A stretch of DNA of 57,878 nucleotides from a virus. Lineage: Duplodnaviria; Caudoviricetes. The stretch covers positions 1 to 57,878 of IMG/VR virus record IMGVR_UViG_3300043178_000021; one strand, given 5' to 3'. Shown here one piece after another: positions 244 through 29,709 of the stretch. Numbering within the stretch: the stretch's first letter is position 1; each line of letters begins with the position of its first letter. A program made the position numbers and the translations under genes. The notes below the pieces were generated by a model. That model did not search any database, was not told the origin of the DNA, and saw only the letters and a list, made by a program, of their open reading frames with translations.

Positions 244-3200
244 GTTCATCCCTCAGACCGCCTACAGCCTGCACATAGACCCCTACGACCCCAATCAGGC
301 GGTCGAGGGCATCTATCGGCTCGCCGCCGAGAGTCTGAAGCGAAACCAGGGCGACTACCGAAAGGTGGCGATGGAGCACTTCGGTGGCACCAACCCGGAG
401 AACCACGGCCCCAAGACGCTGGCCTACGCCGACGATGTCCTGAACATCTGGGGCGCCCTCACCGCATCCAAGCGCGTCCGCGCGACCCCGGTGAAGCGCC
501 TGGATGCGCCAGTTGTCGCGGACGCGAGCGCTGCGACAGATGCCGGTGTATCAGGCGTTGCGACAGATGCGATAGATGCGACAGCACTGGGCCAGTTCTG
601 GACAGTTCAGGCGGTGCCTGTGCGCCGCCCAAGGACCGCCGTAGGCGCTGCGGTTGATGTCGGCACAGATATCCTCAAGGGGCTCAAGGTTGGCCTGGAC
701 GTTGCCGCACTGGATGTCCGAGAGGCGATCAGCCAGATTCCTGGCGTCGGGCCGACAATCGTGTCTACGCTCGACTACGCCGACCAGCTCACCACCGGGA
801 GAAAGAGCGAGGACATCCTCAAGCAGGACATGGAGGCGATAACAAAGCGACTCTCGCCTTCCGCTGGCTACGCGATGTCGAAAGACTGGTGGGACTCCGA
901 GCGCGGCACGTTCGGGCCAGCCTGGAGCGACCCCAGGGCCTACATGATGGGCCTGACGGTCTCCGCTCCCGAGACGGTGATGACCATGCTGCCGGCCATG
1001 CGGCTGGCGCAGGCGGCGCACGCCGGGATGCTGGCGGCTGGGATGAGTCAGGCGCGCGCCGCGGCGCTGGCGGTGAACACAGCGACCGTTGCCGGCGCGG
1101 TCCTCGAGGGCTCTCTTGGCGGGGCGTCTGCGGCGCGCGACGTGCGCGACACAATCCTCAAGGTGCCGGAGGCGGACTTACAGCAGTCAGAGGCGTACAA
1201 GGCGCTGCGTAGGACCATGCCGCATGAGCAGGCGCTCGCTTCGCTTGCTGATGACCAGGCTACCAAGGCTTTCCTCATGGCCGGGGTCGCCACAGGGGCA
1301 TTCGGCGGCATGGGCGATCGCTTGCTGGCGAAAATCTACTTGGGCGAGGTCAAGAAAGGGTTGATCGGTCGCGCGGTCGCTGGTGGCGTTGCCGAGGGAT
1401 TCCTGGAGGAGTTCCCGCAGAGCGGCCTGTCCAAGATGGCGGAGAACGTCGCCACGCAGCCGGTGCGTCCGGTACCGCTTACCGAGGGCGTCCTGAACGA
1501 AGCCCTTGGTGGACTGGCGGTCGGAACTCCGATGGGCGCTGGGGTCGGCGCACTGGCGCGCGGACCTGAACGCGACCGCGCGCAGCCCATTCCCGCCCAG
1601 GATGTTCCGGGGATGACGCCTGCGCCCGGTCCCGCTCGGCCCGAAGCGCCGCCGCCGATCATCCAGGGGCCGGCCGCCGGCGCCACTGTGCGCAGCAAGC
1701 AGCGCATGACCGAGGGCGCGACGCCCACCCAGACGACGCTTGAGCCTGCGTTGCTCGGCAAGGAGTCAGAAATTCAGCTTCCGTCCGGGGCCAAGGTCGG
1801 CGTGCAGTACGCGATCGTGGATGCCGAGAAACTTGTCACGTCGCATGCGGACGACTTGAGCGAGCGCCCTGATTTCCCCGCCGCGCTGCAACCCAGGGTT
1901 AGGGATCGCGCCGGATACGCCATCCAGCTTGCCACGATGCAGCGACAGTTCAACCCGGAATTCCTTGGTGAGAGCCCCACTGCCGAGCAGGGCGCGCCGA
2001 TCGTTGGCGCGGATGCCATCGTGGAGTCCGGCAATGGACGCATGATCGTGCTGCGCCGCATTTTGCAGAAGGACCAGGAAAAGGCGACCAAATACTGGAA
2101 TTGGGTGGCCGCAAAGGCGGAGCAATTCGGCTTCGACAAGCAGGAGCTGGCGCAGGCCCTGGTGGGCACCAACAAGCCGGTCCTGGTGCGACTGCGCACT
2201 ACCGACGTGAACCGGGCGGAATTCGTGCGGCAAGCCAACGTCTCCAACCTGGCCCGCATGTCGGCGTTCGAGCAGGCGCTCTCGGACGCCAAGCTGGTGA
2301 ACATGGATGCCCTGCAGATCCGCCAGGACGGCGGGTTTGCTGTTGGAGAAAACCGCAGCTTTATCCGCCAGTTCATGTCTCAGCTTCCTCCGGTGGAGCA
2401 GGCCGAGCTGGTTGACGAAGCTGGTGTGCTGTCGCAGGCCGGCTTCGTCCGCGTGCGCAACGCGATCCTGGCCAACGCCTACGGCTCGACCGCGTTGCTC
2501 ACCCGCATGACTGAGACGATGGAGGATGGCGGCCGGAACCTGATCCGCGCGCTGTTCACCGCCGCCCCTACGGTCGCCAAGGCAAGAGCCGGCCTGAGCG
2601 AGAAGCAGAAGGCCCTGGACATCACGGAGCAGATCCTGGCCGCGGTGGGGGAGTTCGCCTCCATCCAGGCCAAGGGCATGAGCGTCAAGGAGTTCCTGGG
2701 GCAGCAGCAGCTCCTGGGCAAGCTCGATCCCATCATCGAGGACCTGCTTCGGTTCCTCGCCGACAACACGCGCAACCCGGGTCGCATTGCGCAGTTCATC
2801 ATGGCCTACATGGACGCCCTTTCGGCCTTGCCACCGGAAGAACAAGGCGCGCTGTTCGCGCCGGAGCCCGTCACTCGCGAGCAGTTGCTGACCAAGGCAG
2901 GTCTGGAGGTGTCACGTGAAACAGTCCAATCTGAAGGTGCCCAAGACGGTGCGCTCGCCGGCGGAGCCAGACTCGGGGGCGGTGCTGAAGCTGGTTCGCA
3001 GCCTGCAGCGAAGCCCGAGCCTACAGGCGCTGGCGCGCAAGGCGCTGGGAAGCCTGCCGAGCCGGTCGATCAGGCGCGGCCCGCCGGGGACATAGACAAG
3101 GAGGTCCAAAGTGCCACTCAAGAAGGGAAGCAGCCGGAAGGTGGTGGGTCAGAACGTGTCGGAGATGCTGAAGGAGTGCGCCCCGGGCGGGGACCAGAAG

Positions 3201-3448
3201 ATCGGGAACGTCCCGTGCGGGAACCGGAAGCACGCCCGGAAGGTGGCGGTGGCCGCGGCGCTGAACAAGGCGGGAAAGAGCCCGCGGTAAGCGGTAAGGA
3301 TCTCTCGAAAATCTACGTCACCGTGAAGGTGATCGAGGGCGAAACCGGCAAGCTGGCGAACCTTCGCATGAAGGCCGACGAAGCAATCGCGGACATCGAT
3401 CAACGACTCACCAAAGCCATCGAGATGTGGGAATGCCTAAAGTCGTAG
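98..3448 (+). CDS. Virion ejection/polyvalent protein: N-terminal lytic transglycosylase (SLT) plus DdrB-like ParB domain
   Basis: RAIIQKESGGNPRA...GAHGLGQFIP SLT motifs; LQPRVRDR...GAPIVGADAIVESGNGR ddrB-ParB signature; on the circle it follows the ejection genes. Confidence 0.85.
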   Translation: MDYVAEHAPKYPGVDPDFVRAIIQKESGGNPRATNLEAASVGGAHGLGQFIPQTAYSLHIDPYDPNQAVEGIYRLAAESLKRNQGDYRKVAMEHFGGTNPENHGPKTLAYADDVLNIWGALTASKRVRATPVKRLDAPVVADASAATDAGVSGVATDAIDATALGQFWTVQAVPVRRPRTAVGAAVDVGTDILKGLKVGLDVAALDVREAISQIPGVGPTIVSTLDYADQLTTGRKSEDILKQDMEAITKRLSPSAGYAMSKDWWDSERGTFGPAWSDPRAYMMGLTVSAPETVMTMLPAMRLAQAAHAGMLAAGMSQARAAALAVNTATVAGAVLEGSLGGASAARDVRDTILKVPEADLQQSEAYKALRRTMPHEQALASLADDQATKAFLMAGVATGAFGGMGDRLLAKIYLGEVKKGLIGRAVAGGVAEGFLEEFPQSGLSKMAENVATQPVRPVPLTEGVLNEALGGLAVGTPMGAGVGALARGPERDRAQPIPAQDVPGMTPAPGPARPEAPPPIIQGPAAGATVRSKQRMTEGATPTQTTLEPALLGKESEIQLPSGAKVGVQYAIVDAEKLVTSHADDLSERPDFPAALQPRVRDRAGYAIQLATMQRQFNPEFLGESPTAEQGAPIVGADAIVESGNGRMIVLRRILQKDQEKATKYWNWVAAKAEQFGFDKQELAQALVGTNKPVLVRLRTTDVNRAEFVRQANVSNLARMSAFEQALSDAKLVNMDALQIRQDGGFAVGENRSFIRQFMSQLPPVEQAELVDEAGVLSQAGFVRVRNAILANAYGSTALLTRMTETMEDGGRNLIRALFTAAPTVAKARAGLSEKQKALDITEQILAAVGEFASIQAKGMSVKEFLGQQQLLGKLDPIIEDLLRFLADNTRNPGRIAQFIMAYMDALSALPPEEQGALFAPEPVTREQLLTKAGLEVSRETVQSEGAQDGALAGGARLGGGAEAGSQPAAKPEPTGAGAQGAGKPAEPVDQARPAGDIDKEVQSATQEGKQPEGGGSERVGDAEGVRPGRGPEDRERPVREPEARPEGGGGRGAEQGGKEPAVSGKDLSKIYVTVKVIEGETGKLANLRMKADEAIADIDQRLTKAIEMWECLKS
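2916..3095 (+). CDS. Nested +1-frame small basic protein (59 aa, MKQSNLKVPKTVRSP...)
   Basis: GGAGGT at 2905-2910, GTG at 2916, TAG at 3093-3095; the host frame turns G/A/P-rich here. Confidence 0.55.
   Translation: MKQSNLKVPKTVRSPAEPDSGAVLKLVRSLQRSPSLQALARKALGSLPSRSIRRGPPGT
3111..3290 (+). CDS. Nested +1-frame small basic protein, DUF6496-like (59 aa, MPLKKGSSRKVVGQNVSEMLKE...KVAVAAALNKAGKSPR)
   Basis: Perfect SD AAGGAGGT at 3098-3105, GTG at 3111, TAA at 3288-3290; resembles the common phage MPLKKGxS...AVAIALxKAGK family. Confidence 0.75.
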   Translation: MPLKKGSSRKVVGQNVSEMLKECAPGGDQKIGNVPCGNRKHARKVAVAAALNKAGKSPR

Positions 3449-3771
3449 ACAATGCGCGGCTCGCGCGGATGGCCGAGCTTGGGATGGCGGCCTACGAGGG
3501 CGGCCAGAAGATTGCGGCCCTGCCAAGCAGCAAGGACGTGGTCGATCAGTTGCGCGCAATCGCCATGTCGCTGTCCGCCGCGAATGCGAAGCAGGCGGAA
3601 ATCTTGGGCGCGCAACTCGCCGCGCTGGCTGAGGTAGTCAAGTCTCTTGTCGAGCGCAAGGAGACGGAGCGGGCAGATCCTGAGTACGAATTCGAGATAG
3701 TCGAGCGCGACAGCCACGGCAGGGGAAAGAGGATGATTGCGCGACCGATGAGAGGGGGAGATGACGCATGA
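3433..3771 (+). CDS. Hypothetical protein
   Basis: Coupled ORF with a coiled-coil and a FEIVERD.. C-terminus. Confidence 0.7.
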   Translation: MPKVVDNARLARMAELGMAAYEGGQKIAALPSSKDVVDQLRAIAMSLSAANAKQAEILGAQLAALAEVVKSLVERKETERADPEYEFEIVERDSHGRGKRMIARPMRGGDDA

Positions 3772-4166
3772 GTGAGAAAACCGAGAGCAGGCAGGTATGG
3801 TTCCCGGACTCCAACCGGATCGGCAAGTTCAACCTGCTTTCCGAGGTATTGCACGACGGAACGCAGCGACCGATGCTGCAGGCGCTGTTTGGCCTGTGCC
3901 GCATCCTCGAGGTCATCGACCACGAGTCAGGGCGTGGCAAGACCTACATCGCGGCGAGCGATCTGTTCCAGCCGCTCGCCGAGGGCGAGGAGATTCCCGA
4001 GTACCGAATCGAGATGGCGTGCAACATGCCGTTCGAGGACCCCAAACGTGAGACCGCGCGCATCAATAGCGGCTCGTTCGGTTTCGTGGCGATTCGCAAC
4101 ATCATCGTGCGCGTGCCGCCGATTCAGATGCGCATCAACGTCGCGGCTCCGGCAATAATCAGATAG
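3768..4166 (+). CDS. Hypothetical protein
   Basis: ATGA overlap, SD, typical codon usage. Confidence 0.75.
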   Translation: MSEKTESRQVWFPDSNRIGKFNLLSEVLHDGTQRPMLQALFGLCRILEVIDHESGRGKTYIAASDLFQPLAEGEEIPEYRIEMACNMPFEDPKRETARINSGSFGFVAIRNIIVRVPPIQMRINVAAPAIIR

Positions 4167-4176
4167 GAGGCAGCAC

Positions 4177-4494
4177 ATGAACATGCAGGCAGATGTGGCG
4201 TCTGAGTTCAGCCCGACGCACAAGCGGTTGGATACCGGAGAGGCGGTCAAGGCAACGCGCTGGCGCAAGGACGGCGATCATCCAATGGTGGAGCGATACC
4301 CGATCGAGCGGCGCGAGTATAAGGGATTGCTCGTGGTCGGGCCGAAGGAAAAACTCGCGCTACGTTTCGGAGACTGGATCGTGGAAGACGAGCAGGGCCG
4401 GATCTACGTTGTGGACGGCCAAAGACTGAAGGACAGCGCCGGGAAAGAGTATCCGTCCAGGTTCGAGGTTAGTTACGAGGAGCTGCAGTCATGA
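4177..4494 (+). CDS. Hypothetical phage protein (KATRWRKDGDHP...GDWIVED...FEVSYE family)
   Basis: AGGAGG SD; motif common in small phage proteins. Confidence 0.75.
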   Translation: MNMQADVASEFSPTHKRLDTGEAVKATRWRKDGDHPMVERYPIERREYKGLLVVGPKEKLALRFGDWIVEDEQGRIYVVDGQRLKDSAGKEYPSRFEVSYEELQS

Positions 4495-4988
4495 GGGTCC
4501 TGCGCTTTTTCTCCTGGTGGCTGGCGTGGCTCTCGCCGGGGGTGACGCACCTGATGTACTACCGCGCGCTCGAAGGCCAGTGGAACGGGGCGGCCAATTC
4601 GGTGTTTGACCTGGATACCGACGACATCCGGGTGGCGATCTGCACAAACACATACACGCCGAATCAGGACACGCACGATTTCTTCGATGACGTGACGAAC
4701 GAAGTAACTGGCACCAACTACCCGAACGCCACGAACAACTCGCTGCAAAGTCCAGTGGTGAGTCGCTCGACAAACACCGTCACATTCGATGCTGCTGATG
4801 TTGTGTGGTTGCAGTCTGGAGCTGGATTTTCTAACGGACGCAAGTTCGTGCTACGCAAGCACAACGCTACCGCAGGGAACGCTCGGCTATACAGCGTGGT
4901 CACAGCCGACGCTGACGTAGGCAACGTGACCGGCGATCTCACGCTTGCATGGAGCGGGAGCGGCATCGCCACCTGGACGACAACCTAA
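4491..4988 (+). CDS. Putative minor tail/virion structural protein
   Basis: DLDTDDIRVA...YTPNQDTHDFFDDVTNEV...FDAADVVW motif seen in phage virion proteins. Confidence 0.65.
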   Translation: MRVLRFFSWWLAWLSPGVTHLMYYRALEGQWNGAANSVFDLDTDDIRVAICTNTYTPNQDTHDFFDDVTNEVTGTNYPNATNNSLQSPVVSRSTNTVTFDAADVVWLQSGAGFSNGRKFVLRKHNATAGNARLYSVVTADADVGNVTGDLTLAWSGSGIATWTTT

Positions 4989-5049
4989 TGACGAGCCAGA
5001 CGAAACGCAATCCTCCGCTGCGCCCGCCACCACTCAAAGGACGATGACC

Positions 5050-5469
5050 ATGATCTCTCTCACCTGGCTTCTTCGCATTCTGCTGGCCTCGCTGATCGTG
5101 CTGGCCGGCATGGCGCAGCAAGCGAACGCGGCACAAGTCACCTTCGCTTGGGACACGCCCACCGACAAGACCGGCATAGTCGGTTACTTCCTGGGCTGCG
5201 GGCCTTCCGCCGGCAACCACGGCACGCCCGTCAAGCAGCCGGGGGCGAACACCTCGACAGGCACGCTCAACCTCGCGCCAGGCACCTGGTATTGCGCGGT
5301 GTGGAGCTATGGGACCCCTGACACGTTCGTGTCGGCGAAGTCTAACGAGCCGCAGGTGCCAGTGCCGCTCGGCAAGCCGGACAACCTTCGCGTTACCATC
5401 ACGCTTACCTGGGATCCGGAGCGTGGTGTGTTTGTGGCGAAGGCCGGGCCGGTGCGCGGGATCGAGTAG
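5050..5469 (+). CDS. Signal-peptide-bearing fibronectin type III-like protein
   Basis: Hydrophobic N-terminus ending ANA/A; VTFAWD...GY...GTWYCAVWSY...SNE FN3 pattern; SD AAGGA. Confidence 0.7.
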   Translation: MISLTWLLRILLASLIVLAGMAQQANAAQVTFAWDTPTDKTGIVGYFLGCGPSAGNHGTPVKQPGANTSTGTLNLAPGTWYCAVWSYGTPDTFVSAKSNEPQVPVPLGKPDNLRVTITLTWDPERGVFVAKAGPVRGIE

Positions 5470-5474
5470 TCCAT

Positions 5475-5825
5475 ATGGTCCTGCGCGCCAACACGGACGA
5501 TCCAGAGGTTGTCACCGGGTTGCGTAAACGTATTGAGCCGTGGGCAATGGAGCACAACCACGGCCAGATAGGCGGGCTGCTGGTGCTGTGTCTGGGCCCT
5601 TACCGCGCCGGTGAGCATCTGAAGGCGCACGATCATCCGTTCCGGCACGTGCAATACGTGGAGAGCGGGGCGATGCGGCTGCTGATCGGCGAGAGTGCTA
5701 TCGAGGTGGTCGCGCCCAACATGATCGAGATTCCTGCGCGTACCATTCACGGCGGCACGGCGCTCGAAGACGGCACGCGGCTGCGCTGCATTTTCATAGA
5801 GGCTGAGACGCGCCCCTATGCCTGA
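5475..5825 (+). CDS. Cupin-domain protein
   Basis: HDHPFRHVQYVESG ... IPARTIHGGTALEDGT cupin motifs. Confidence 0.8.
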   Translation: MVLRANTDDPEVVTGLRKRIEPWAMEHNHGQIGGLLVLCLGPYRAGEHLKAHDHPFRHVQYVESGAMRLLIGESAIEVVAPNMIEIPARTIHGGTALEDGTRLRCIFIEAETRPYA

Positions 5826-6909
5826 GCGCGACTACGTCGAGCCGATTCCGCGCGGCGTGTACACTGTCGGTAGGCATGCCACGCCAGCGCTCGACGTGGA
5901 CGACGATGTCACGCACGTGACCGTGTCGCTGTTGCGCGCCGCATGGCCGAACATCGGCGCCGAGGTGATACGCGTCCCCATCGAGTGCAGCGTCGATGGC
6001 GGCCCCTGGCGCAAGTCGGGCGCGGTCGCGGCTGCGGGCGGCGATCACTATCACCGCTACGGCTTTCTGATGCCGGCCACCACAGCGCGCTTGCGCCTGC
6101 CGCGCGGCGTTGGGCGCCAAGTGCGCGCGCAGATTGATGTCCATGCCGCGCTGGAAATTAAGCTCGACGTGGGACTGCGCATCGCGCCGCTGCCACAGGA
6201 ATCTGGCAGCCACAACTCGGCGGCATTCCTGGCCGAAAACGGCGCCACGGGCACCGCGCTGACATCGCTCACCAGCGGATCGTTCGACGGGAGTGGATCG
6301 GACCGCGCTATTGTGGCAATCATCGGCAACGGGACTTTCGCTGGCGGCGCAGTGGTCTCGAGCTGTACTTGGGATGTGCCCTCACCGCAGTCGCTTTCCA
6401 GCCTGGTGACTGTCACCGGCGGGCCCTATCATCGCTGTTCGGCGTGGGGCTTGGCGAACACCACCAGCGCCACCGACACGGTCACCGCCAACTGGGCGAG
6501 CACCCAGGACGAGGCGCTCATTATCGGGCACGCATTCACGGGCGTGGACACTGCCTCGGCTTTCGGTGATACGCAAAGCGGCGCGGGCACCGCGGCAGAG
6601 CCGAGCGCGACGCTGACCGGCGTGGTGTCCGACGATCTGTGCCTGGACGGCGTGCTGATAGAGACATCGGCCTCGGCGAGCCAGGGCGCGGATCGGACGC
6701 TGCGTGGTGACGAGAATCTGGGCGGGGCCTATCCGCACCACTTGGTGAGTTCGACACAGTCTGGCTCCGCAGGCGGCGTAATGACCTGGACGGTCACAGG
6801 CTCGCCGCAGTGGACACATGTCGCCGTGGTTATCAAGGGCATTACGTGGGTGGCGCAGCAGAACGCGCCAGAAACACTTCGCGTTCACGCGGGCGCACTG
6901 AGGTGGTGA
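5818..6909 (+). CDS. Putative virion accessory/beta-sandwich protein
   Basis: T/S/G-rich beta-strand C-terminal domain within a structural block. Confidence 0.6.
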   Translation: MPERDYVEPIPRGVYTVGRHATPALDVDDDVTHVTVSLLRAAWPNIGAEVIRVPIECSVDGGPWRKSGAVAAAGGDHYHRYGFLMPATTARLRLPRGVGRQVRAQIDVHAALEIKLDVGLRIAPLPQESGSHNSAAFLAENGATGTALTSLTSGSFDGSGSDRAIVAIIGNGTFAGGAVVSSCTWDVPSPQSLSSLVTVTGGPYHRCSAWGLANTTSATDTVTANWASTQDEALIIGHAFTGVDTASAFGDTQSGAGTAAEPSATLTGVVSDDLCLDGVLIETSASASQGADRTLRGDENLGGAYPHHLVSSTQSGSAGGVMTWTVTGSPQWTHVAVVIKGITWVAQQNAPETLRVHAGALRW

Positions 6910-6910
6910 G

Positions 6911-7348: not shown

Positions 7349-7349
7349 C

Positions 7350-8488: not shown

Positions 8489-9309
8489 CGCAGTACGTCC
8501 GCTGGCCGAATTGGGCGCGCGGGTGGACGCAGCCGCGCCGCGTATCGCGGAACGTAGGTGGCCTGACGCCGACTAGCGGCACGACCGTCAGCGCGCCAGT
8601 CGTCACGCACACCTATACCGGCCAAGCGCCCCAGGTACGCGCCCGTGTGCAGCCGGCGCAGGTACCCCACACCTACACCGCGCAGGCTCCGCAGTTCGTC
8701 TACACCGTTCGCCCCGCGCAGGTCACGCACACCTACGTCGCGCAGGCGCCGCAGGTTCGAGCCAAGGTCCAGCCTGGGGTCGTAACTCACACCTACACGG
8801 CACAGACTCCGCAGGTCAGGGCGAGGGTGCAGCCTGGCCAGGTAACGCACACCTACAGCGCGATCGCCCCGCAGGTACAGGCCCGCGTACAGCCGGGCGT
8901 GGTGACGCACACGTACACGGCGGTCGCGCCGAAGTTCGGCGCCACACTCCGGGTTGGGATCGTTACCCACACCTACACCGCCGTCGCCCCGCAGGCGCAG
9001 GCCAGGGTGCAGGTGCCGGTTGTCGCGCATACATACCTGGGGCAAATCCCGGGCGTCCAAGCCGGCAACACCGTCATGGTGCCGACTGCCGCGCATACCT
9101 ACGGGGCGCTGACGCCAGACATCATTGCGCAAGCCGAGGCCCCGTCTCAACCGGCCTCGCCAAGGGGCGGTGGTGGTGGTAGCCTGATCTCCCTGGATCG
9201 CTTTAGGAAGCGCGCCGCCGAAGATGCCCAGAGGGTCACTGACGACCAGGATAGCGATGATCTAATGCTCGCAGCGATGGCGTTCACAATTCTACGGAGG
9301 GCCGCCTGA
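8485..9309 (+). CDS. Repeat-containing fibre-like protein (20-aa VTHTYTAQAPQVRARVQPGV repeats)
   Basis: Eight units at an exact 60-bp period plus a ninth diverged unit. Confidence 0.75.
   Translation: MTQYVRWPNWARGWTQPRRVSRNVGGLTPTSGTTVSAPVVTHTYTGQAPQVRARVQPAQVPHTYTAQAPQFVYTVRPAQVTHTYVAQAPQVRAKVQPGVVTHTYTAQTPQVRARVQPGQVTHTYSAIAPQVQARVQPGVVTHTYTAVAPKFGATLRVGIVTHTYTAVAPQAQARVQVPVVAHTYLGQIPGVQAGNTVMVPTAAHTYGALTPDIIAQAEAPSQPASPRGGGGGSLISLDRFRKRAAEDAQRVTDDQDSDDLMLAAMAFTILRRAA
8599..9120 (+). repeat. Coding tandem repeat, 60-bp period
   Basis: Units start at 8602, 8662, 8722, 8782, 8842, 8902, 8962 and 9022 and differ mostly at synonymous sites. Confidence 0.9.
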
Positions 9310-12300
9310 TGGCCGGGCTTTCTGCGTGTCTTAAAAAAATCGGTCTTGAAAAACACGAGGCGGCGATCCTCAAGGGGCTTGCCAGAGACAAGCTCGACGA
9401 GGGCCTCGAGGGGCATGCTGCAGCCGAGCAGGCCGTGCGCGAATACATCGAGACGCTGCTGACCGAGCGCGCCGACATCGCGCGCCAAGTGTTGCGCGCC
9501 GGCGGGGTCATGCCGGAGGAGCCGAGCGTTCCAGACCTTGGAACGGTGGATGCGTCCGCGCACGATGCCGCGTCTTCGCCCCGCAACCAAGAGCCCGAGC
9601 CCACCCCGGAACAAAAAAAGGCGGGGAACTACAAGAAGGGGCATGTGCGGGTGGCCGGGCTCGACGTGGCGATCGAGACCCCCGCCGGATCGTGGCGCTG
9701 GAGTTACGATCTGGAGCGCATCGCTCAGGTAGCCAAGTTGCTCGAAAGCAAGGATCTGACGGTCAACGAGAACACTGCGCGCAACGAGATCACCATCGCG
9801 CTCGAGAAATTCCGTCTCGGCGAGCCGATGGACGGCGCGCACTCCCTAGCCGCGGCCGAGCGCGGTCTGCGCCGAAACTTCCCGGCGCTGGCCGAAGTGA
9901 TCGAGAACATTCTGGACCGTGGCTGGCGCATCAAAATGGCCTCCCACTACGGCTACGTCAAGCGCACCGTTGGAAAGGACGGCGACCAGGTCGATGTCTT
10001 CGTCCGCGTGGGTACGCCGCTCGACTATGACGGGCCGGTGTTCGTGGTCGATCAGCAGAAGGGCAACGGGCATCTCGACGAGCACAAGATCATGCTCGGC
10101 TGGACGGATGTCGATGCCGCCAGGAAAGCCTACCTGGACAACTACGAGAGGGGCTGGGGCGGACTCAAGAACATCACGGAGTGGACGCTGCCGCAGCTCA
10201 AGCAGTGGCTGGCCGGCGGGGATCTGGAGCGCCCGGCGATCGAGGCAGCGGCGCCCCTCACCCCGGCCGAGGAGATCGCCAGCCGGTTCCTCATGGGCAA
10301 GGGTTTCGAGTCAATCGGTGAGGCGCGGGAGGTGGTCGGCAAACTCATCGGGAAGGACATCAAGCCGGGGACTCCGGAAGCGAAACTCGCCGATGAGATC
10401 ATCGAGCTGGGGGCGGTCCTGGCGGCGCGAGACATTGTGCGCGCGCCTGTGTCAGCGAGACAGGCATACGGCCACCTGGTCCATCTGTACGAGGAGTTGA
10501 TGCCGGCGCTCTACGTGCGCACTTCTGGCTCGATCGAACGGCAGGCGTACTCTACTCCGCTGCCATTGGCGTTTGTCGCTTCTGAGTTGGCCGAGATCGA
10601 CGCATTCAAGTCGGTCTACGAGCCAACCGCCGGCAACGGCGCGCTGCTGATCGCCGCGAACCCGGACAGCAAGGGCACCGAGGTCAACGAGATCGACCCG
10701 CAGCGCGCAGCGGCGCTCGCGGCGCAGGGCTTCAAGCCACAGAGCTACGACGCAACCGAGCGCGGCGCAGCATGGCCCGGGAAGGACGTGGTGATCGCCA
10801 ACCCGCCGTTTGGCGTCACACGCGATAAGAAGGGCAAGACGCGCAGCTTCGACATGGGCGGCGGGTACGTGACCAACGAGGTCGATCACGTCATTGCGCT
10901 CAAGTCTCTGGGCTCGATGAAGGATGACGGCAGGGCGGTGCTCATCATCGGCAGCGTGAATATGCTGGCGAAGACACCGGAGGCGCGTTCGGACGCCTAC
11001 CACGCCAAGGCGAAACGCGAGTTCTTCTTTACACTCTACAACAAGTACCGGGTGGTGGACCACTTCACCGTGTCGGGCGATCTGTACGCCAAGCAGGGCG
11101 CTGCGTGGCCGGTAGACGTGATCGTCATCCGCGGCAAGGGCAAGTCAACCTTGCCGCTTCCGGCGGTCAGTCCGCCGAGGCAATATACTTCCTGGGAGCA
11201 GCTTGCGGAGATCTTCGATGCCGACTACCAAAATCGCCTGGGCACCGCCGCCCAGGGAGACGTACCTGAACCCGGTGGAGAATCTACAGGGACGACTGGG
11301 GGCGGTGCGCCTGGAGGCGGGGGAGCCGCTGGACCAAGACAGCTACTTTCTGGCGCTGGCGGAGCGACTCAGCCGGGGGATGGAGGAGCTGGAGCCCGAG
11401 GAGGTCGAGGAGATGCAGGAGTATCTCACCGCGGAGGGACTGCTTCCGGCGCGCCTGGTGCTCGAGGAGGGGGACGACCGCGCACTGGTGTGGATGCAGA
11501 GCCCGGAGCTGCGCCGCCGCCTGCTGATGCTGGGGGTGCCGGGGCCGGACTTGCCGGAGCGGGCGCCCCTCAAGAGCAGCCCGAGGGCGGAGGCGCTGCT
11601 GGCGGAGTTGACGCCGCTTCAGTGGGTGGGCCTGCTGCTCTACCACCCTCCGGACGACCAGTAAGCGCGGAGGCCGACGCCCAAGCCGCCCAAGACCTGC
11701 AGGACGCCCTGGGCGAGCTAGCGGACATTTTCGGGAAGAAAGGCCGCCTCAACATCACGCCGGAGCAGGAGCAGCGGCTGCTGCCGGTACTGACGAAGCT
11801 CTTTGACGCAGCGTTTCGCCGCGGTTACCACAAGTTTAGGGAGGCGGCGCGCTACGTCCTGAATGCCGTGCGGCAGGCATTGGGGGCCGTCGCTGATCTG
11901 ATCTCCCTGGAGCACCTGCAGGGAGCCTACATTGCCATGTCTGCCCGCTACCGCTCCCAGGGGGCGGAGGCCGCGAAGGATGTGATCGCTGTGCAGGCGC
12001 TCGCCGAGATCGAGCCGCCTCCAACGCCGCCCGAGAAGAGCTTGAGGGACCGCCAGGCCGAATCCGAAACCGAGCATCAAGTCATGTATGAGCCGGCCAG
12101 CACCGCGGCTGGCCTTGGCACGCTCATCCCGGCCAACCTCAAGACGGTCACCAAAGACGCGCTGCGGGCGCTCGTGCGCGCCGTGGGCGACATCGACGAG
12201 TTCGTTATGTCCAAGCTCGGATGGACGCGCGAGCAGTTGACGGCGCGCCTCGGGGCCGAGCAGGTGGATGCGCTGGCGCTGGCGCTTTACAACTTCGACA

Positions 12301-15300
12301 AGGGCTCCGGTGTCATCATTGGCGACCAGACAGGCATCGGCAAGGGGCGCGTGGTAGCGAGCATTATCGCCTACGCGCTCAAGGAAAAGCTCGTCCCGAT
12401 CTTCGTTACGGAGAAGCCGAATCTCTATGCGGATATCTACCGCGACCTGAAGGCAGTCGGCTTGGGCAAAGTGCGCATGTTGATGACCAACGCAGGTCAG
12501 GACGTGCCGATGGATGATGGAGCCTGGGCGCTGCGCGCGCCGCCACTGGCGAAGCACAACGCCACGATGGACGCGCTCATGCGCGCCGGGAAGCTATCCG
12601 GCTACGACGTGATCCTCACGACGTACAACCAGATGCAGACCATCAAGGGCGGCGAGCGCACCCTGCGCATGAACTTCCTCGAGCAGTTCGCCAAGGGCGG
12701 CGTGGTGATCTTCGACGAGTCGCACAACGCCGGCGGAACCGACGCCCCCAAGAGGGGCGAAGAAACGTCCGGCAAAACTGGAAGGGCAGGATTTGCGCGG
12801 TCGATCGCAGCGGTCGCGCGCGGGGTCATATATTCCTCGGCCACTTACGCCAAGCACCCGAGCGTGATGGATCTGTACTTCAGAACCGACATGCGCCTGG
12901 CGGTGGAGAAGATCGAGGATCTGCCTGGAGCGATTGCGGCCGGCGGCGTGCCGTTGCAGCAAGTGGTGGCGACCATGCTCGGCGCGGCCGGGCAATACAT
13001 CCGCCGCGAACGATCGTTCTCTGGCGTGCGTTACGATGTCGTGGAAATCGCGGTAGACAAGGAGGTCGCGCAGCGCGCGGCGCTACTACTGCGCGAGATC
13101 AACGACTTCGAGCGCAAATTTATCCGGCCGGCAATTAGAAACATCAAAGCCGATGCCAAGGCGGCGGCCGGATCGGCGCAAACCGTAGGGCCGCAGATTA
13201 CCAGCACGTCGTTTGGCCAGATCATGCACAACCTGATTGACCAGACGCTGCTGCAAATGAAGGTGGTAGCGGCCACACAGAAAGCCTTGGAAGCGCTGAA
13301 AGCGGACCAGAAGGTAGTGCTCACGGTTGCCAACACGATGGGATCGTTCATCGAGGAACACATCGCGCAGACGAATATCCACGCTGGCGACGCGATCCGC
13401 ATGGGCGTTGCAGACCTGTTCGCGCGATACCTGCAAAAGACGCGCCGGTATGTCTACAAAGCGCCGTTCCAGAAGGGTCAGGGGGTGACGCTCTACACCT
13501 CCGACGAGCAGCTTGGGCAGCTGGGCGTGCGCGCCTTCGAGCGCGTGCTGAAGATGATCCGAGACAGCGAAGAGCTGTTCTCCGACATCCCACTTTCTCC
13601 CATCGACTACATGCGTGCGGAGCTGCGCAGGGCCGGGTACAAAGTCGAGGAGATCACGGGGCGCGCGACGTACCTGGAGTATCACGCAGACGGGACTGTA
13701 ACCTACGAGATCCGGCCGCCGAAGGAAACCAGCATTGCCGGGCGCGTGGATGCGGTTCGGCGATTCAACAGCGGCGAGGCGAGCGTCATCATCCTCAACC
13801 AGGCTGGCGCTACCGGCCTGTCCTTGCACGCGAGCGAAACCTTCGCGGACAAGCGACAGCGCCACATGATGATCGTGCAGGCCGAGAAGAACATCGACAC
13901 CCACATGCAGATGCTCGGGCGCATCCATCGCACCGGGCAGGTGGTGGTCCCACAGTACAGTCAGCTTGCGGCCGACATCCCGGCCGAGCAGCGTCCTGCC
14001 GCCGTTCTTGCGAAGAAGATGGCGAGCCTGAACGCGAATACTACGGCGAGCCGGCGCTCCGCCGTCACTGCAGAGGCCGTCGATTTCATGAACGCATACG
14101 GCGACGAGGCCGCCGCGCGCGTCATGTGGGACAACCAGGATGCCCATGACTTGATCGGCAGCCCACTGAAAATCAATGACGATGGAGATGGGTTCGTTAC
14201 CGAGGACGCGATCACGAAAGTGACTGGGCATATTCCTCTCCTGGACCTTGACCAACAGCGCGCGATCTACGATCTCATTGTCCAGGCATACCGGGATAGG
14301 GTGGAGCTGGCCGACGCGATGGGCGAGAACGTACTGGAAGCAAAAACGCTGCCGCTGGATGCCAGGACCATCAACAAGACGATGATTTTCGAGGGGCGCG
14401 GAGGGGATAGTCCGTTTTCACAACCGGCCTACGCCGAGCGCATGGACGTCAAGAAGATCGGCAAGCCCTACATGCCGGAGCAGGTGACGCAAATGGTGCG
14501 CGTCGCGCTGGGTGTGCCGGCGAGTGACCAGAGTATCTTTGAGTTGGCGGACTTGGCCGAGCAAAATGCTCAAAAGATGCTTAGAGAAACGCGCGAGCGA
14601 CTCACGAAATTCATGGAGGAGAAGATCCTTCAGGCAACGACGGCGCCTGGGGAGGCCGGTATGCCCGTTCCGGTGAAGCTGACTCCAGACGACGAGAACG
14701 CAATTACGGGCTTCCGATTGCTTCAGGAGCGCAACGCTAGATTGGTCCAGGAGTTGCTGACCAACTACCGCATTGGCACCCACGTCGAGTTGCATGGCCT
14801 ATGGGGAAGCATCCCAGGGATCGTCATCGACATCGAGCACAACACGCGCACGCACAATCCTGTGGCTCTTGGGGCGTGGAAACTCAAGGTTGCGGTGCCC
14901 GATGCAATCCGACAACTGAAGATCGGCCTGAACGATTTGGCGATGGGCGCTTCGGATGCCCCGCAAAGGGGGGTTGGCATCCAGCCCTATGCTGGCGACG
15001 ACCCGGTGCTGCCCATGTTCACCGCCGCGCAATCGGTCACGCGCGAAGAACGCACCGTGATGACCGGGAACCTGCTGGCGGCGTTCGGCAAGTTCCAGGG
15101 TGGACAGGTGGCGATGTTCACCGACAACACCGGAGCCATTCGGCAGGGCGTGGTGATGCCGGCGCGCTTCAATATCGGCGAGGCCATCAGCAAGCAGCCC
15201 GTGGAGTTCACAACGCCGGAGCAGGTCATAACCTTCATTGGCCGCTCCGCCACCAAGGTGTTCGCATCCAACGGCTTGATCGGGATCGAGCCCTACCGCA

Positions 15301-18300
15301 GCGGATACCGCATTATGGTTGCCCCGAGGAAGGGGGACGGCGGTCGGTACTACCTAGATCAGGAAATGCGCGCCGCCACCGGAGACTTCACAAAGGTCGG
15401 GCAGTGGATGCGCGCGCAGGTAAATGAGCGAGAAGCCGCGCTTGCGCTGCGCAGGGCAATGGAGCTGGGTGCGCAGTTCCAGGCGACCTCCAACAAGGAC
15501 GTTGCCCTGGATGTGACAGGTCAGAAGCGCGTGGAGCAGGTGCGCGCGCTCTATGGCGAGCAGTTTCTGGTAGAGGCAACGCGCGGGCATTATAGAAAGG
15601 GGGCAAGGCCAGATGCGACACCAGCCATCGAAGACAGTGCCGTTCAAGGGGTGCTCGATCTATATCGCGCCGGGGAAACTGCGCCTGTGCCAGTGGGTGA
15701 TCGTGGATGGCAGCCCAAAGTACGCTACCTCGCCCAAGGCATCGCGGAGCGCATCGCGGTCGCCGGCGCGGAGGAGATCCGCGGGCAGGTGATTCGTAAC
15801 GCGCACGACCTGGCGGCCATCATGCAGCTCTACCGCGATCCGCGGTTCGAGACGATGCGCTGGGTGTTCACGCGCGAAGGAAAGGCGGTCGGGCATGTTG
15901 GCGTGAGTGCGCGCCTGCCGAGCGTCGCGCCCGGCTTCCCGATGGGGGTCGAGCCCTTACAGTGGCTAAAGGAGCAGGTCGAGGCGACGGGGGCCGATGC
16001 CGTGTGGTCGGTACACAATCATCCAAGCGGCAATCCAGAGCCTAGCCCCGCCGATCAGGGCCTGCAGCGCCACATCGCACGCATGCTTGCACAGGTGAGC
16101 CAGGAGCTAGGGCGCGAAGTCAAGGCGATGCCGCACGTCGTCATCGACACCAACAGCTATGCGGTGATCGAGAACACCGGCCAGTGGATCATCCACAGGC
16201 GCAAGTTCGGGGACGAACATCTCCTGGTTGCCTCCATCGACCACGAGATACTCGGCACCCAGGTGCGGCAGCCGGAGGATGTCGCCAGGGTCGGCCGGCG
16301 CTTCAAGCGCCAGGGCTGGGTCACGCTGATTGCGGCGACGGTTCCGCCGTATCCCGCAACGACCCGCGTTACGCAGGTGCGCGCAGTGGCGGAGGTGCCG
16401 GAGGCGGTGCTGTTGAGCGCGCGTGGCGGGGCCGCGATTCGCCGCTTCGCCAGACAGACCGGCGCGATGCATGTCTTCGCCGCAGGCTTTTCCGCAGAAA
16501 ACTTCGACTATTTCACGCAGCTCACCGCGGACGGCTTTCTGTTGGACGCCGTGGATGAGCAGGGAATCCCGACGCTGTCCAGGCTGATGGCCCCCAGCGA
16601 CAAGTTCTTCGGGGCAGATGTTCCGCACGCGCGCGCCGTCGCGCAGGCGAAGAAGTTGCGCGCGTTCGGCATCCCGGCCGATGCGGCGTTCATTTACGGC
16701 GACACCAGCACCACCGGCCTGAAGATGCACCCGGACTATGCGGATGCGAAGGAAGGGGACTTCATGGCCGCCGCTAGGTTGGCGGAGGACATGGTCACGA
16801 GCGACATCATCGAGCGCGTGGAGGGACTGGGGCCCGTCATCTTTGCGCCCGTCTCCGCTTCCGAGCGCAGGGCCACCAACAGGATCCCGGGCGCGATGGC
16901 GGCCTATCTGGCGAAGCGCACCGGGAACAAGCACGCGGTCGGGCGCATCGCACAAAGCTCGCGCGCGTCGCACACCGGCGCGACGCTGATGGATCGCATG
17001 CTCTCGCCGGCAACCTTCTCGGGCAAGGTCGAGGAGGGCGGGCGCTACGTGCTAGTGGACGACGTTGTAACGTCCGGGGCGACGCTCGCGAACTTGGCCG
17101 ATTTCATTCAGGCGAACGGCGCCCAGGTAGTGGGCATCGTCACCTTGTCCAACATGACGCGCGGCAGTAGAATTGCCGCTGACCCCGCGCAACTCGGGGA
17201 CGTGGAGGCGAAGCATGGGAGCACAATCCAAGAGCTTTTTGCGATCGACCACTCCGCCCTCACGGCAGTCGAGGCCGACTACCTCCTCCGATTCCGATCT
17301 GCTGACACCCTCCGAGCTCGAGCGGCTGAAGCGCGGCGAACAAGAGGCGGCCATCTACTACGAGAGCCGCTGGGCGAATACGGGGCCGACGAAGCCGGCC
17401 CAATCGTAGAGTCCGAGCGGCTGACCGAGCCGCTGTTCGCGCACATCTACACGCCGGAGGAGCGCGCCGCCGCGACGGCGATCCTCGGCAAGCGCGTGCG
17501 CGAGTCTATCAGCAACCGGCTGTTCCGTGTCCCGGTGCAGGCCCTTGGTATCGACCGCCGGCTGCGCGCCGGCATCGACCTGGTACTCGAAAAGACGTGG
17601 GGATTGCTGCCAGAAAAGGCGCAGGAGCGGCTGGCCGCCGGGTTGGTATCCGACTACTGGCTCGATGAGGGCGTGGTGGATCGCCGCGCTCTGATGTATT
17701 CGGCCATCCGCCGCGGCTATCGCGGCATCGAGGAGGCCCTGCTGTCCCTGGGCAACCTCACCAGGGCAGAGTCCCGAGTAGCCTACGAGTGGATGAACGC
17801 CGACCACCCGCAGGCGGCGGACTACTTCATGCAGCAGCTCTCCGACGAGAGCATCGCGGCGCTCACCAGGGTGATGCAGGCGATCGACCGCTTGAGCGGA
17901 GAGGCGGTGCGCCTGGGCCAGCTTGGCGCGGATACCTACGAGCGGAATCGGTTCGCCTACCTGCGCCGGTCCTACGAGAGCTACGTCCTGGAGGCCACCC
18001 CGCAACAGAAGGCCATGATGGCGCGCGCCAAGCAGATCCTCGGGGATCAGTACAAGGGTCGCGGCATTTCCTACAAGGTGGACGCCTCCGACCTGTCGGC
18101 CACAGACCCTACCTGGTGGGGCAGGAAGGCGCAGGCGGGCCGCGCCGACTTGGGTCTGATGGGCGAGAAGTTCCTGCGCCTGGAGCGGCGTGCGGCCGCT
18201 CCTGGGGCCGGAGCGGGAATCCTTGAGGGGATGGAGGGCGGCGAGGAACGACCGGGGAGGCTTCTCGAGGTCAAATACTGGCCGGCTGAGGTGCCGGTGC

Positions 18301-29031: not shown

Positions 29032-29049
29032 GCGAAACGAGGAGAACGT

Positions 29050-29665: not shown

Positions 29666-29674
29666 CCCCGTCCC

Positions 29675-29709
29675 GGCCCATCGCGCATGCGCGCCTGGGT
29701 CGTTTTTTT
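29675..29709 (+). terminator. Intrinsic terminator
   Basis: GGCCCA..GCGC/GCGC..TGGGTC hairpin followed by T7. Confidence 0.7.

What the first reader, a model, noticed from the sequence alone, without database searches (positions are those of the whole stretch)
2905..17409. Genes hidden inside giant polyvalent proteins: the linkers are intact small genes in the +1 frame
Seen: five ORFs (2916-3095, 3111-3290, 11218-11664, 15613-15792, 17215-17409) lie wholly within the two giant genes. All are on the same strand, all in the +1 frame, each preceded by an SD-like site, and each at or near an inter-domain linker. For the first three, the host frame abruptly switches to Gly/Ala/Pro low-complexity sequence with A/T-ending codons (GGA, GCT, CCT), while the +1 frame has the genome's usual G/C-ending codons. 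Established: polyvalent/DarB-like proteins are mosaics of domains joined by disordered linkers. Inference: these proteins grow by reading through neighbouring small genes that stay independently translatable, giving a dual-coding layer that gene callers miss. The nested products might be chaperones, inhibitors or packaging partners of the host protein.
Basis: partly seen in the sequence, partly recalled or inferred. Interest (0 to 1): 0.9.

Follow-up and report, generated by a model that had tools for sequence, protein, structure and literature searches.

The report
Real genes hidden in giant-protein linkers
Inside two giant phage counter-defence genes, the floppy "linker" stretches are also read in a second frame as complete small genes, at least one of which encodes a conserved, well-folded protein that gene callers and annotators miss.

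Summary
The five +1 ORFs exist, but ORF counting alone gives nothing beyond chance: 12 +1 ORFs of at least 59 aa against 10.3±2.3 expected.

Comparison with relatives changes the picture.

ORF 11218-11664 is a real nested gene.
- Its product has full-length homologues in public protein sets.
- The same +1 gene follows the same methyltransferase domain in 56 of 77 distinct related phage loci, low-GC ones included.
- It usually has its own ATG and often a Shine-Dalgarno site.
- It folds with pLDDT 94.
- It also occurs as a stand-alone gene in a bacterial island.
- The giant frame is kept open over it: 0 stops seen against 228 expected in 47 loci. This is true dual coding.

ORFs 2916-3095 and 3111-3290 lie where 11 relatives encode a conserved small basic two-helix protein in +1. 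In the window, codon adaptation swaps fully to +1, but sequence similarity to that family is weak. They are probably real.

ORFs 15613 and 17215 are unsupported.

The Gly/Ala/Pro linker with A/T-ending codons is the by-product of reading a normal gene one base out of frame. The function of the nested proteins is unknown. No Pfam, PHROG, PDB or BFVD relative was found.

The parts
9309..20132 (+). Host gene 2. It encodes a 3607-aa polyvalent protein with InPase, N6-adenine MTase, Sno/AAA_34 helicase, RadC/JAB and PRTase-like domains.
   Evidence: Open frame. Pfam and PHROG hits.
11218..11664 (+). Nested gene A, in +1 of host gene 2. It encodes a 148-aa acidic protein (pI 4.45), N-terminus MPTTKIAWAPPP. 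It belongs to a conserved family with no Pfam, NCBIfam or PHROG match.
   Evidence: phmmer: 21 small full-length homologues. Family present in 56 of 77 distinct related loci. AF2 pLDDT 94.2, pTM 0.87. CAI 0.717 nested against 0.366 in the host frame. Nested GC1/2/3 = 0.78/0.43/0.89.
11207..11210 (+). SD-like GGAG, 7 nt upstream of the ATG of nested gene A.
   Evidence: In relatives an SD-like site of at least 4 nt precedes the start in 29 of 47 loci, against 10.5% background.
11199..11708 (+). Host-frame Gly/Ala/Pro-rich 'linker' between the MTase domain and the next module. It is coextensive with nested gene A. Host GC1/2/3 = 0.89/0.73/0.48.
   Evidence: The host frame is kept free of stops: 2.8 expected in the window, P(0)=0.043. 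Across 47 loci, 228.4 stops were expected and 0 seen.
98..3448 (+). Host gene 1. It encodes a 1116-aa polyvalent protein with an SLT lytic transglycosylase domain, a DarB-like region and a ddrB-ParB domain.
2916..3095 (+). Nested ORF 1, in +1 of host gene 1. It is 59 aa, basic, with a GTG start. GGAGG lies at 2905-2909, 6 nt upstream. It is probably a diverged member of the small basic two-helix family that relatives encode at this position.
   Evidence: Same place, frame and size as the conserved +1 gene of 11 relatives. hhalign P=0.0099 over 25 collinear columns. CAI 0.701 nested against 0.428 host. A roughly 95%-identical strain shows 7 differences: 3 synonymous in the nested frame, 1 in the host frame. 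The HMM does not reach significance (E 5.3, rank 12 of 1043).
3111..3290 (+). Nested ORF 2, in +1 of host gene 1. It is 59 aa, basic, with a GTG start. AAGGAGG lies at 3098-3104, 6 nt upstream. It may be a second copy of the same small family.
   Evidence: CAI 0.756 nested against 0.362 host; nested GC1/2/3 = 0.64/0.47/0.93. hhalign P=0.0094 on the family's most conserved motif, 11 columns only. HMM rank 5 of 1043, E 2.4. No listed difference from the ~95% strain over 3006-3274. No significant likeness to ORF 1.
15613..15792 (+). +1 ORF of 59 aa. Not supported as a gene.
   Evidence: No SD. No family. Nested GC1/2/3 = 0.51/0.64/0.81. CAI 0.571 against 0.518. In the one relative found the +1 frame is also open, but without a start or any likeness of its own.
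17215..17409 (+). +1 ORF of 64 aa, overlapping the end of the PRTase-like domain. Not supported as a gene.
   Evidence: GGAGG 6 nt upstream. No family and no relatives found. Nested GC1/2/3 = 0.53/0.61/0.77. CAI 0.573 against 0.452.

Best explanation
The window is a 57.9-kb freshwater phage contig. Two of its polyvalent (DarB-like, counter-defence) genes contain dual-coding stretches.

How the DNA is read:
- Over 11218-11664, frame 0 gives a hydrophobic-poor Gly/Ala/Pro spacer. This spacer keeps the methyltransferase and helicase modules in one polypeptide.
- The +1 frame, read from its own SD and ATG, gives a 148-aa acidic, folded protein of a conserved family that no library describes.

Where selection acts (shown):
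- Sequence selection acts mainly on the +1 product.
- Frame 0 is selected only to stay open.
- Its low-complexity composition and A/T-ending codons follow automatically. Host position 1 is the nested wobble base (G/C-rich). Host position 2 is nested position 1. Host position 3 is nested position 2.

The first gene: its C-terminal linker (2916-3290) carries one or two further nested genes for a small basic two-helix protein. This is well supported in relatives and probable in the window.

ORFs 15613 and 17215 are most likely chance frames.

Inferred, not shown:
- The small genes came first. Flanking genes fused by reading across them in the frame in which a GC3-rich gene has the fewest stops.
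- The nested proteins are made together with the giant protein and act with it, as accessory or partner subunits of the anti-restriction module. I put about 45% on this. The alternative is a separate anti-defence effector, about 30%.
For: Gene A, homology and structure:
- phmmer of the window's +1 product against 1.84 billion representatives gave 22 hits at E<=1e-3. Of these, 21 are 127-349 aa proteins aligned nearly end to end.
- 80 viral loci were found through the MTase domain alone. With L001, L011 and the window, 82 of 83 loci have a linker of 48-277 aa with the +1 frame open for 80-248 codons. They carry 0-2 stops in +1 against 1-20 in +2. This also holds where the genome's GC3 is 0.35-0.47.
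- 47 of 77 distinct +1 products start M(1-12 aa)-W-x-P. 56 of 77 match the family HMM.
- An SD-like site lies upstream in 29 of 47 loci, against 10.5% background.
- AF2 on a 57-sequence alignment gave pLDDT 94.2 and pTM 0.87.

Gene A, selection on each frame:
- In close pairs, differences in the MTase domain pile up at host position 3 (for example 1/2/32 and 1/0/30). In the linker they do not. Nine independent pairs sum to 171/131/124 at host positions 1/2/3.
- Host-frame stops expected from the nested protein sequences total 228.4 over 47 loci. None is seen.

Gene A, outside the overlap:
- A stand-alone 313-aa gene with the family domain at its C-terminus sits in a bacterial integrative island.

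Small family:
- It is conserved in +1 in 11 relatives.
- Differences by nested position 1/2/3 are 231/132/250 (19 non-independent pairs). The upstream domain gives 874/674/1637 by host position.
- About 17.5 host stops are expected (my sum of the 11 relatives' rows) and 0 are seen.
- AF2 gives two helices, with core pLDDT about 91.

Window-specific:
- CAI swaps frames for ORFs 1-3.
- An independent run assembles identical sequence over 10502-11586 and 2800-4476.
Against: - There is no expression or protein evidence. No RNA run holds the stretch.
- Given only the host amino-acid sequence, the +1 interval of gene A is stop-free in 24-42% of resamplings. So the ORF by itself proves nothing.
- The word-indexed protein search found nothing for the single product or for the family alignment.
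- 21 of 77 loci are not assigned to family A. Most of them still carry protein-like +1 products.
- The family evolves fast, and the position bias in the linker is modest (171/131/124).
- For ORFs 1 and 2 the family HMM is not significant (E 5.3 and 2.4 among 1043 frames). hhalign probability is only about 4%. The two ORFs are not detectably alike.
Confidence: 0.82

Rival explanations
1. All five are chance open frames of a 64% GC genome. Linkers poor in hydrophobic residues have no T at codon position 2, so they cannot form +1 stops. Gly/Glu codons make SD-like strings.
For: - The ORF count is not above expectation: 12 against 10.3±2.3.
- The intervals are stop-free in 20-83% of resamplings.
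- SD-led starts are not enriched for long ORFs (p=0.15).
- 44 antisense ORFs of at least 59 aa, up to 389 aa long, lie in the same two genes.
- This remains the best reading for 15613 and 17215.
Against: It cannot explain any of the following:
- full-length homologues;
- the conserved +1 family in low-GC relatives;
- the confident fold;
- the stand-alone gene;
- the codon-adaptation swap;
- the substitution pattern.
Confidence: 0.04
2. The +1 genes are relics. Small genes were overrun when neighbours fused. Their frames survive only as a fading compositional imprint and are no longer translated.
For: - In the window, ORFs 1 and 2 resemble the relatives' small family only weakly.
- ORFs 4 and 5 show an intermediate codon shift that could be decay.
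- There are no expression data.
Against: - For gene A, the frame is intact in every related locus with a linker long enough to examine (82 of 83). Among the 47 of 77 distinct loci whose product carries the W-x-P start motif, a start Met lies at a consistent position and 29 of 47 have an SD. MTase identity among these loci goes down to 33%.
- Coevolution is strong enough to give pLDDT 94.
- A relic would have collected stops, above all in low-GC genomes.
Confidence: 0.06
3. The +1 frame is reached by programmed +1 ribosomal frameshifting from the giant frame. This would give a shorter MTase-X fusion, not an independent small protein.
For: The +1 frame is open for some codons upstream of the ATG in many loci: the stop-to-stop frame in the window is 180 codons against an ORF of 148. 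Phages use this device elsewhere, for example in tail assembly chaperones (recalled).
Against: - A Met lies 1-12 residues before the invariant W-x-P in 47 of 77 loci.
- SD-like sites are enriched six-fold in front of it.
- Database proteins start at the same point.
- No slippery site was looked for.
Confidence: 0.07
4. The giant ORFs are assembly or frameshift artefacts. In reality there are three separate genes, and the small one is an ordinary gene.
For: None was found.
Against: - The host frame runs through the nested gene without a stop in all 47 loci tested, each from a different viral contig, although 228 stops were expected.
- A second run from another sample and study assembles identical sequence with no gaps over 10502-11586. 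A ~95% strain covers 9921-11800 with 102 substitutions and no indel.
- GenBank phage BS-TP4 has the same single giant CDS.
Confidence: 0.01

Closest known systems
Embedded spanin genes Rz/Rz1 of phage lambda and relatives
   Same: A complete small gene lies wholly inside a larger gene in the +1 frame, with its own start. In spanins the two products work together. Embedded, overlapped and separated layouts of one pair exist (PMC6139136, PMC5295617: search listing and starts of abstracts only; the details are recalled).
   Different: - Here the host is a giant multi-domain virion or counter-defence protein.
- The overlapped host stretch is a low-complexity spacer with almost no sequence constraint of its own.
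- The nested products are soluble proteins (one acidic alpha/beta, one basic two-helix), not lipoproteins.
- No interaction between nested and host products has been shown.
Overprinting in viruses (ancestral frame versus de novo frame)
   Same: There are two frames, one ordered and one disordered. The frame whose codon usage matches the genome is taken as the older one (PMC3744397, PMC8227390, PMC3494269: listing and starts of abstracts). Here the nested frame has the genome's codon usage and the host linker is the disordered one.
   Different: In the classic cases a new small protein is born inside an old gene. Here the old gene appears to be the small inner one, and the new reading is a linker of the large outer gene. 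That is fusion by out-of-frame read-through, not birth of an accessory protein.
Polyvalent proteins of phages and conjugative elements (Iyer et al. 2017, PMC5512222)
   Same: The hosts have the defining many-domain make-up: MTase, Sno/SNF2 helicase, ParB-like, SLT, RadC and InPase.
   Different: A term search of that paper's main text found 0 occurrences of 'overlapping', 'linker', 'low-complexity' or 'frameshift'. So nested genes in the linkers are not part of the published description. Its supplements could not be seen.
Acidic DNA-mimic anti-restriction proteins (Ocr, ArdA)
   Same: These are small, strongly acidic proteins in an anti-restriction setting. Family A has median pI 4.75, and 43 of 57 members have pI below 5.
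   Different: No sequence or fold likeness to anything in PDB or BFVD was found. The comparison rests on charge alone and on recalled knowledge.

Membership tests
Embedded out-of-frame gene pair (Rz/Rz1-type layout) | A complete ORF lies wholly inside a longer ORF on the same strand in another frame. | tested here: met
   The same layout is seen in 47 relatives for gene A and in 11 for the small family.
Embedded out-of-frame gene pair (Rz/Rz1-type layout) | The nested gene has its own translation start signals. | tested here: met
   The window has ATG with GGAG at -7. In relatives a Met sits 1-12 aa before W-x-P in 47 of 77 loci, and an SD-like site is present in 29 of 47 against 10.5% background. 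This is sequence evidence only.
Embedded out-of-frame gene pair (Rz/Rz1-type layout) | Both frames are under selection. | tested here: met
   Nested frame: homologues, fold and substitution pattern. Host frame: 0 stops against 228.4 expected.
Embedded out-of-frame gene pair (Rz/Rz1-type layout) | Both products are made, and they interact. | not testable with these tools
   No RNA run holds the stretch. The complex prediction gave no verdict (see Tried and rejected).
Polyvalent protein (Iyer et al. 2017) | One polypeptide carries several unrelated counter-defence domains. | tested here: met
   Pfam hits: InPase, N6_Mtase, AAA_34/Helicase_C_4, RadC, Pribosyltran; SLT and ddrB-ParB. PHROG: DarB-like.
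Overprinted pair with the nested frame ancestral | The older frame has the genome's codon usage. The younger product is disordered or low-complexity. | tested here: met
   CAI is 0.70-0.76 nested against 0.36-0.43 host, with a genome-like mean of 0.673. The host stretch is a Gly/Ala/Pro run and the nested product folds. The order of events remains inference.
Small basic two-helix nested family (alignment A5), membership of window ORFs 1 and 2 | Significant sequence match to the family profile. | tested here: inconclusive
   HMM E 5.3 and 2.4 among 1043 frames, ranks 12 and 5. hhalign P 0.0099 and 0.0094, probability about 4%. Position, frame, length, charge and codon usage all agree.
Any described protein family for nested protein A | A match to a Pfam, NCBIfam or PHROG profile, or to a solved or predicted viral structure. 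| tested here: not met
Programmed-frameshift product | A slippery site and a stimulatory element lie at the frame junction. | not tested
   No search for slippery heptamers was run.

The most novel reading that the evidence does not exclude
Linkers of polyvalent proteins may in general be overrun genes. Phage and plasmid counter-defence genes would fuse by reading across an intervening small gene in the one frame that a GC3-rich gene leaves open. The inner gene would stay alive as a dual-coded partner of the giant protein, for example an assembly or packaging chaperone or a regulator of the MTase-helicase module. If so, there is a whole hidden layer of new protein families, at least one apparently with a new fold, inside genes that are annotated as single 'hypothetical proteins'.
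Probability: 0.35. Interest if true: 0.9.

Novelty: new variant of a known kind. Interest (0 to 1): 0.8.

Why it matters
- **A hidden gene.** A conserved, confidently folding protein family exists in dozens of phages. No Pfam, NCBIfam or PHROG model matches it. In the one GenBank isolate found, the only annotated feature over the examined 5.8-kb stretch is a single giant CDS called 'hypothetical protein'.
- **A new reading of 'linkers'.** Here a disordered linker is explained not by a need for flexibility but as the shadow of another gene read one base out of frame. The linker frame is constrained only to lack stops.
- **A route for gene fusion.** It offers a concrete way for multi-domain counter-defence proteins to grow without losing the gene in between.
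- **A practical screen.** A codon-adaptation swap between frames picked out the three real or probable cases in this window. The same swap could be used to screen other giant genes.
- **A testable system.** The arrangement occurs in a cultured phage, Bacteroides phage BS-TP4, so the idea can be tested at the bench.

Tried and rejected
- **Nearby DNA relatives.** blastn of the linker region against GenBank phages found nothing. Against plasmids it found only short helicase matches.
- **Close relatives of the window for dN/dS.** None was found in the viral, metagenome or genome collections.
- **Word-indexed protein search.** Nothing for the 153-aa product or for alignment A2.
- **tblastn of family members.** No match against GenBank phages or PLSDB plasmids.
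- **The search for related loci with A2 and A3.** I used the genome search instead.
- **Position-specific divergence over the whole family alignment.** Saturated and uninformative: 0.61/0.57/0.60.
- **Pairwise likeness of +1 products of the window, L011 and L001.** Only marginal, p about 0.02. Superseded by the 80-locus set.
- **'GC cap' or G-run avoidance as the cause of low host GC3.** Rejected. Pro-rich and Ala-rich segments keep GC3 at 0.80-0.93, and Glu and Gln codons shift too.
- **The phrog_2423 hit of ORF 2** (E 4.5e-5, 22 residues). Not shared by the relatives' small proteins, so treated as chance.
- **Complex prediction of the MTase domain (A6) with nested protein A (A2).** 'No answer', score 0.02. 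This is no evidence either way.
- **ESM Atlas.** No usable hit for gene A, and only sub-threshold leads for ORF 17215.
- **RNA.** No RNA holder was listed among the sequencing runs.
- **Read laying.** The difference table was cut. The positions of the 102 differences of the ~95% strain in 9921-11800 could not be read.
- **Failed or crashed calls.** One family scan failed on a frame containing stops and was rerun on proper ORFs.

Full report
**Setting.** The window is one whole IMG/VR viral contig of 57,878 bp, about 64% GC, with a CheckV completeness of 82%. Sequencing runs that hold it are freshwater metagenomes. Gene 98-3448 (1116 aa) has SLT and ddrB-ParB domains and a DarB-like PHROG match. 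Gene 9309-20132 (3607 aa) has InPase, N6-MTase, Sno-type helicase, RadC/JAB and PRTase-like domains. Both are polyvalent proteins in the sense of Iyer et al. 2017.

**The observation taken by itself.** They are, however, five chosen out of 12 +1 ORFs, 9 +2 ORFs and 44 antisense ORFs of at least 59 aa inside the two genes.
- I kept the host protein sequences and redrew synonymous codons 400 times. This gave 10.3±2.3 +1 ORFs of that size (12 observed, P=0.29). The five intervals stayed stop-free in 20-83% of rounds.
- The reason is simple. A +1 stop needs T at host codon position 2, that is, a hydrophobic residue, and linkers have few of these.
- SD-like strings precede 4 of 5 stated starts against a 13% background. 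Among all 199 +1 start codons, those with an SD are not significantly more often followed by a long frame (7 of 25 against 27 of 174, p=0.15).
- None of the five products hits Pfam. The only PHROG hit is a 22-residue match of ORF 2.

At this stage I rated the finding as mostly chance.

**What did not fit chance.** Host GC3 really does collapse in the two linkers: 0.35-0.58 against 0.77-0.80. It does so for Gly, Ala, Pro, Arg, Ser, Thr, Glu and Gln alike. Pro-rich and Ala-rich segments of the same and related proteins keep a high GC3. So neither a cap on GC content nor avoidance of G-runs explains the drop.

**Comparative data for 11218-11664.** No close relative of the window exists in the collections.
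- I searched viral contigs with an alignment of the MTase domain alone and obtained 80 loci at 33-66% identity.
- With L001, L011 and the window, 82 of 83 loci carry a hydrophobic-poor stretch of 48-277 aa directly after the MTase domain. The remaining locus is cut at a contig end.
- Over that stretch the +1 frame is open for 80-248 codons, with 0-2 stops. The +2 frame has 1-20 stops. This also holds in phages whose GC3 is only 0.35-0.47.
- The +1 products are visibly homologous. They share M..(L/I)AW.P at the start, then ..Y(L/F).LL.DR(V/L)..L, a GVPG.LP or SNP motif, and L..W...L at the end. The window's product has all of these.
- Of 77 distinct products, 47 have a Met 1-12 residues before W-x-P. 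After iteration, 56 match the family HMM.
- Most of the other 21 carry a different but equally protein-like +1 product. One group ends in LLPSDHHL(D/E).

**Independent support for gene A.**
- phmmer of the window's 153-aa product against 1.84 billion representatives gave 22 hits at E<=1e-3. Of these, 21 are proteins of 127-349 aa aligned almost end to end. They come mostly from short metagenome contigs and are named 'hypothetical'.
- Ten of them have no Pfam, NCBIfam or PHROG family.
- AlphaFold2 on a 57-row alignment with the window's protein first gave mean pLDDT 94.2 and pTM 0.87. The fold is a beta-hairpin plus six helices.
- In 401 genomes of one bacterial order the family profile hit two. 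One is again nested in a giant ORF. The other is a conventional 313-aa gene with the domain at its C-terminus. It lies in an island with an integrase, a Toprim-DUF3987 primase, a SNF2-PLD protein and a GIY-YIG protein.

The family is therefore a real protein domain that also lives outside any overlap.

**Which frame is selected.** In close pairs of loci, differences in the MTase domain sit at host position 3 (1/2/32; 1/0/30; 8/1/50). In the linker they do not. Nine independent pairs sum to 171/131/124 for host positions 1/2/3. The most variable site is thus the nested wobble position.
- Across loci, host position 1 GC tracks the genome's GC3 (0.53 to 0.98). Host position 3 stays at 0.27-0.61 apart from one outlier, L091 at 0.75, as a second codon position would.
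- In the window, CAI measured against the giant genes' own usage is 0.717 in the nested frame and 0.366 in the host frame. Background values are 0.673±0.071 for the host frame and 0.418±0.052 for +1.

**The host frame is also selected, but only to stay open.** I redrew synonymous codons for the nested proteins from each locus's own codon pool. This predicts 228.4 host-frame stops over 47 loci, and none is present. In low-GC loci 7-11 stops are expected per locus. In the window 2.8 are expected, P(0)=0.043.

This rules out the idea that the giant ORF is an artefact. So do two further results. A second run from another sample assembles identical sequence. A ~95% strain covers 9921-11800 with 102 substitutions and no indel.

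**Start signals.** SD-like sites precede the nested start in 29 of 47 loci (23 with at least 5 nt), against 10.5% background. A common form is AAGGAGAAG..AATGG, which in the host frame reads K-E-K-L-N-G. The ATG in that count follows from how I picked the start, namely the nearest Met.

**The first gene.** Sixteen viral loci related to the ddrB-ParB region were found with an alignment. My anchor search recovered 10 of them plus L016 and L020. L115-L120 were not examined. L112 equals L111.
- In all 11 distinct loci, the +1 frame right after the domain encodes a 42-65 aa basic protein (pI above 10 in 10 of 11). Its consensus is M..LPKTPSGE.LEK.RKL.R.L..NPKMRRAVAAALKAMG.P.
- Differences by nested position are 231/132/250 (19 non-independent pairs). 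The upstream domain gives 874/674/1637 by host position.
- About 17.5 host stops are expected and 0 are seen (my sum of the 11 printed rows).
- AF2 gives two helices with a core pLDDT of about 91. There is no PHROG family.

**ORFs 1 and 2 in the window.** They sit at this very place and are 59 aa each. Both are basic, with net charge about +9 by my hand count from the translations. GGAGG and AAGGAGG lie 6 nt before their GTG starts.
- Nested CAI is 0.701 and 0.756, against 0.428 and 0.362 in the host frame.
- Sequence likeness to the family is weak. The HMM gives E 5.3 and 2.4, ranks 12 and 5 of 1043 frames. hhalign gives P about 0.01 each.
- The two ORFs are not alike.
- In the ~95% strain, ORF 1 has seven differences. 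Three are synonymous in the nested frame and one in the host frame. Both differences in the conserved core are nested-synonymous (hand count).
- No difference is listed over 3006-3274.

I rate ORF 1 at about 65% and ORF 2 at about 55% as live genes.

**ORFs 15613 and 17215.** No family or homologue was found. Only one distant relative of the host region of ORF 4 turned up. There the +1 frame is open but shows nothing of its own. No relative was found for ORF 5. Nested GC2 exceeds GC1, and CAI is intermediate. A phase-switch scan of the whole window flags exactly these four places in the two giant genes, so something mild is there. Even so, I rate each at about 20-25%.

**Mechanism and origin.**
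- Shown: dual coding, with the sequence constraint on the inner gene and an openness constraint on the outer one.
- Follows from the code: reading a GC3-rich gene in the frame (pos3, pos1, pos2) gives G/C at host position 1 and rarely T there. The result is few stops and a Gly/Ala/Pro/Arg/Asp/Glu-rich peptide. The other frame is full of stops (2-20 per locus). This explains why the nested genes are in +1 of the host.
- Inferred: the small genes came first and the flanking genes fused across them. This fits the codon-usage criterion for the ancestral frame (PMC3744397, abstract start only) and the stand-alone copy.
- Function is open. Family A is acidic, with median pI 4.75, and follows the MTase module in every locus retrieved, all of which were found through that module. 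A partner role is my best guess. It was not supported or excluded by the one complex prediction I ran (see Tried and rejected).

**Novelty.** Embedded out-of-frame genes (Rz/Rz1) and overprinting are known. A full-text search for 'polyvalent proteins' together with 'overlapping gene' found one unrelated paper. The founding paper on polyvalent proteins has no occurrence of 'overlapping', 'linker', 'low-complexity' or 'frameshift' in its main text; its supplements were not seen. In the only GenBank phage with this MTase domain, BS-TP4, the stretch carries one giant 'hypothetical protein' CDS. The 119-aa +1 ORF after the MTase domain is not annotated. Its likeness to family A is weak (P=0.014).

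Noticed in passing
L124 3327-3686 (GenBank PQ571277.1, Bacteroides phage BS-TP4): A cultured low-GC phage has a 119-aa ATG-led +1 ORF directly after the same MTase domain, inside a 5391-aa CDS annotated 'hypothetical protein'. The ORF is not annotated. Its likeness to family A is weak (hhalign P=0.014).
   Followed up: partly
L106 5443-6384 (G052:C57): A stand-alone 313-aa gene has an unknown N-terminal domain, a Asp/Glu run and the family-A domain. Its neighbours are a LEM-3-like GIY-YIG protein and a SNF2-PLD protein. The island also carries a Toprim-DUF3987 primase and an integrase, so it may be a satellite or defence island.
   Followed up: partly
L001, L033, L045, L048, L051, L056, L064 and others (post-MTase linkers): 21 of 77 loci do not match family A. 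Most of them hold another conserved-looking +1 product. One group ends in LLPSDHHL(D/E) and lacks the N-terminal W-x-P hairpin. This may be a second nested family or a shortened form.
   Followed up: partly
window 11665-12010 (host residues ~786-901); also L107-L122 after the small nested gene: A conserved helical module (DFKDALADLA...LMPTLVKLFDAA...) follows the nested gene in different polyvalent proteins. It recurs in many loci in shuffled positions, for example upstream of the MTase domain in L011.
   Followed up: no
window 3006-3274 and 3271-3290: The ~95%-identical strain in run X3 shows no listed difference over 269 nt covering most of ORF 2, where about 14 would be expected at the mean divergence. 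It then has a messy 21-nt insertion at the end of ORF 2.
   Followed up: no
window 11198-11222 and relatives' equivalents: The host residues K-E-K-L-N-G at the end of the MTase domain are conserved in many relatives. Their codons (AAGGAGAAG..AATGG) are the SD and ATG of the nested gene. The host sequence here seems shaped by the nested gene's start signals.
   Followed up: partly
L013 3618-4107 compared with L015 3618: Two contigs that are 99.3-99.6% identical differ by one in-frame 489-nt insertion or deletion inside the giant ORF.
   Followed up: no
window 27715-27924 and 28891-29040 (- strand): The phase-switch scan also flags two spots in ORFs 27415-28218 (+) and 28639-29790 (-). Their coding status I did not check.
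   Followed up: no
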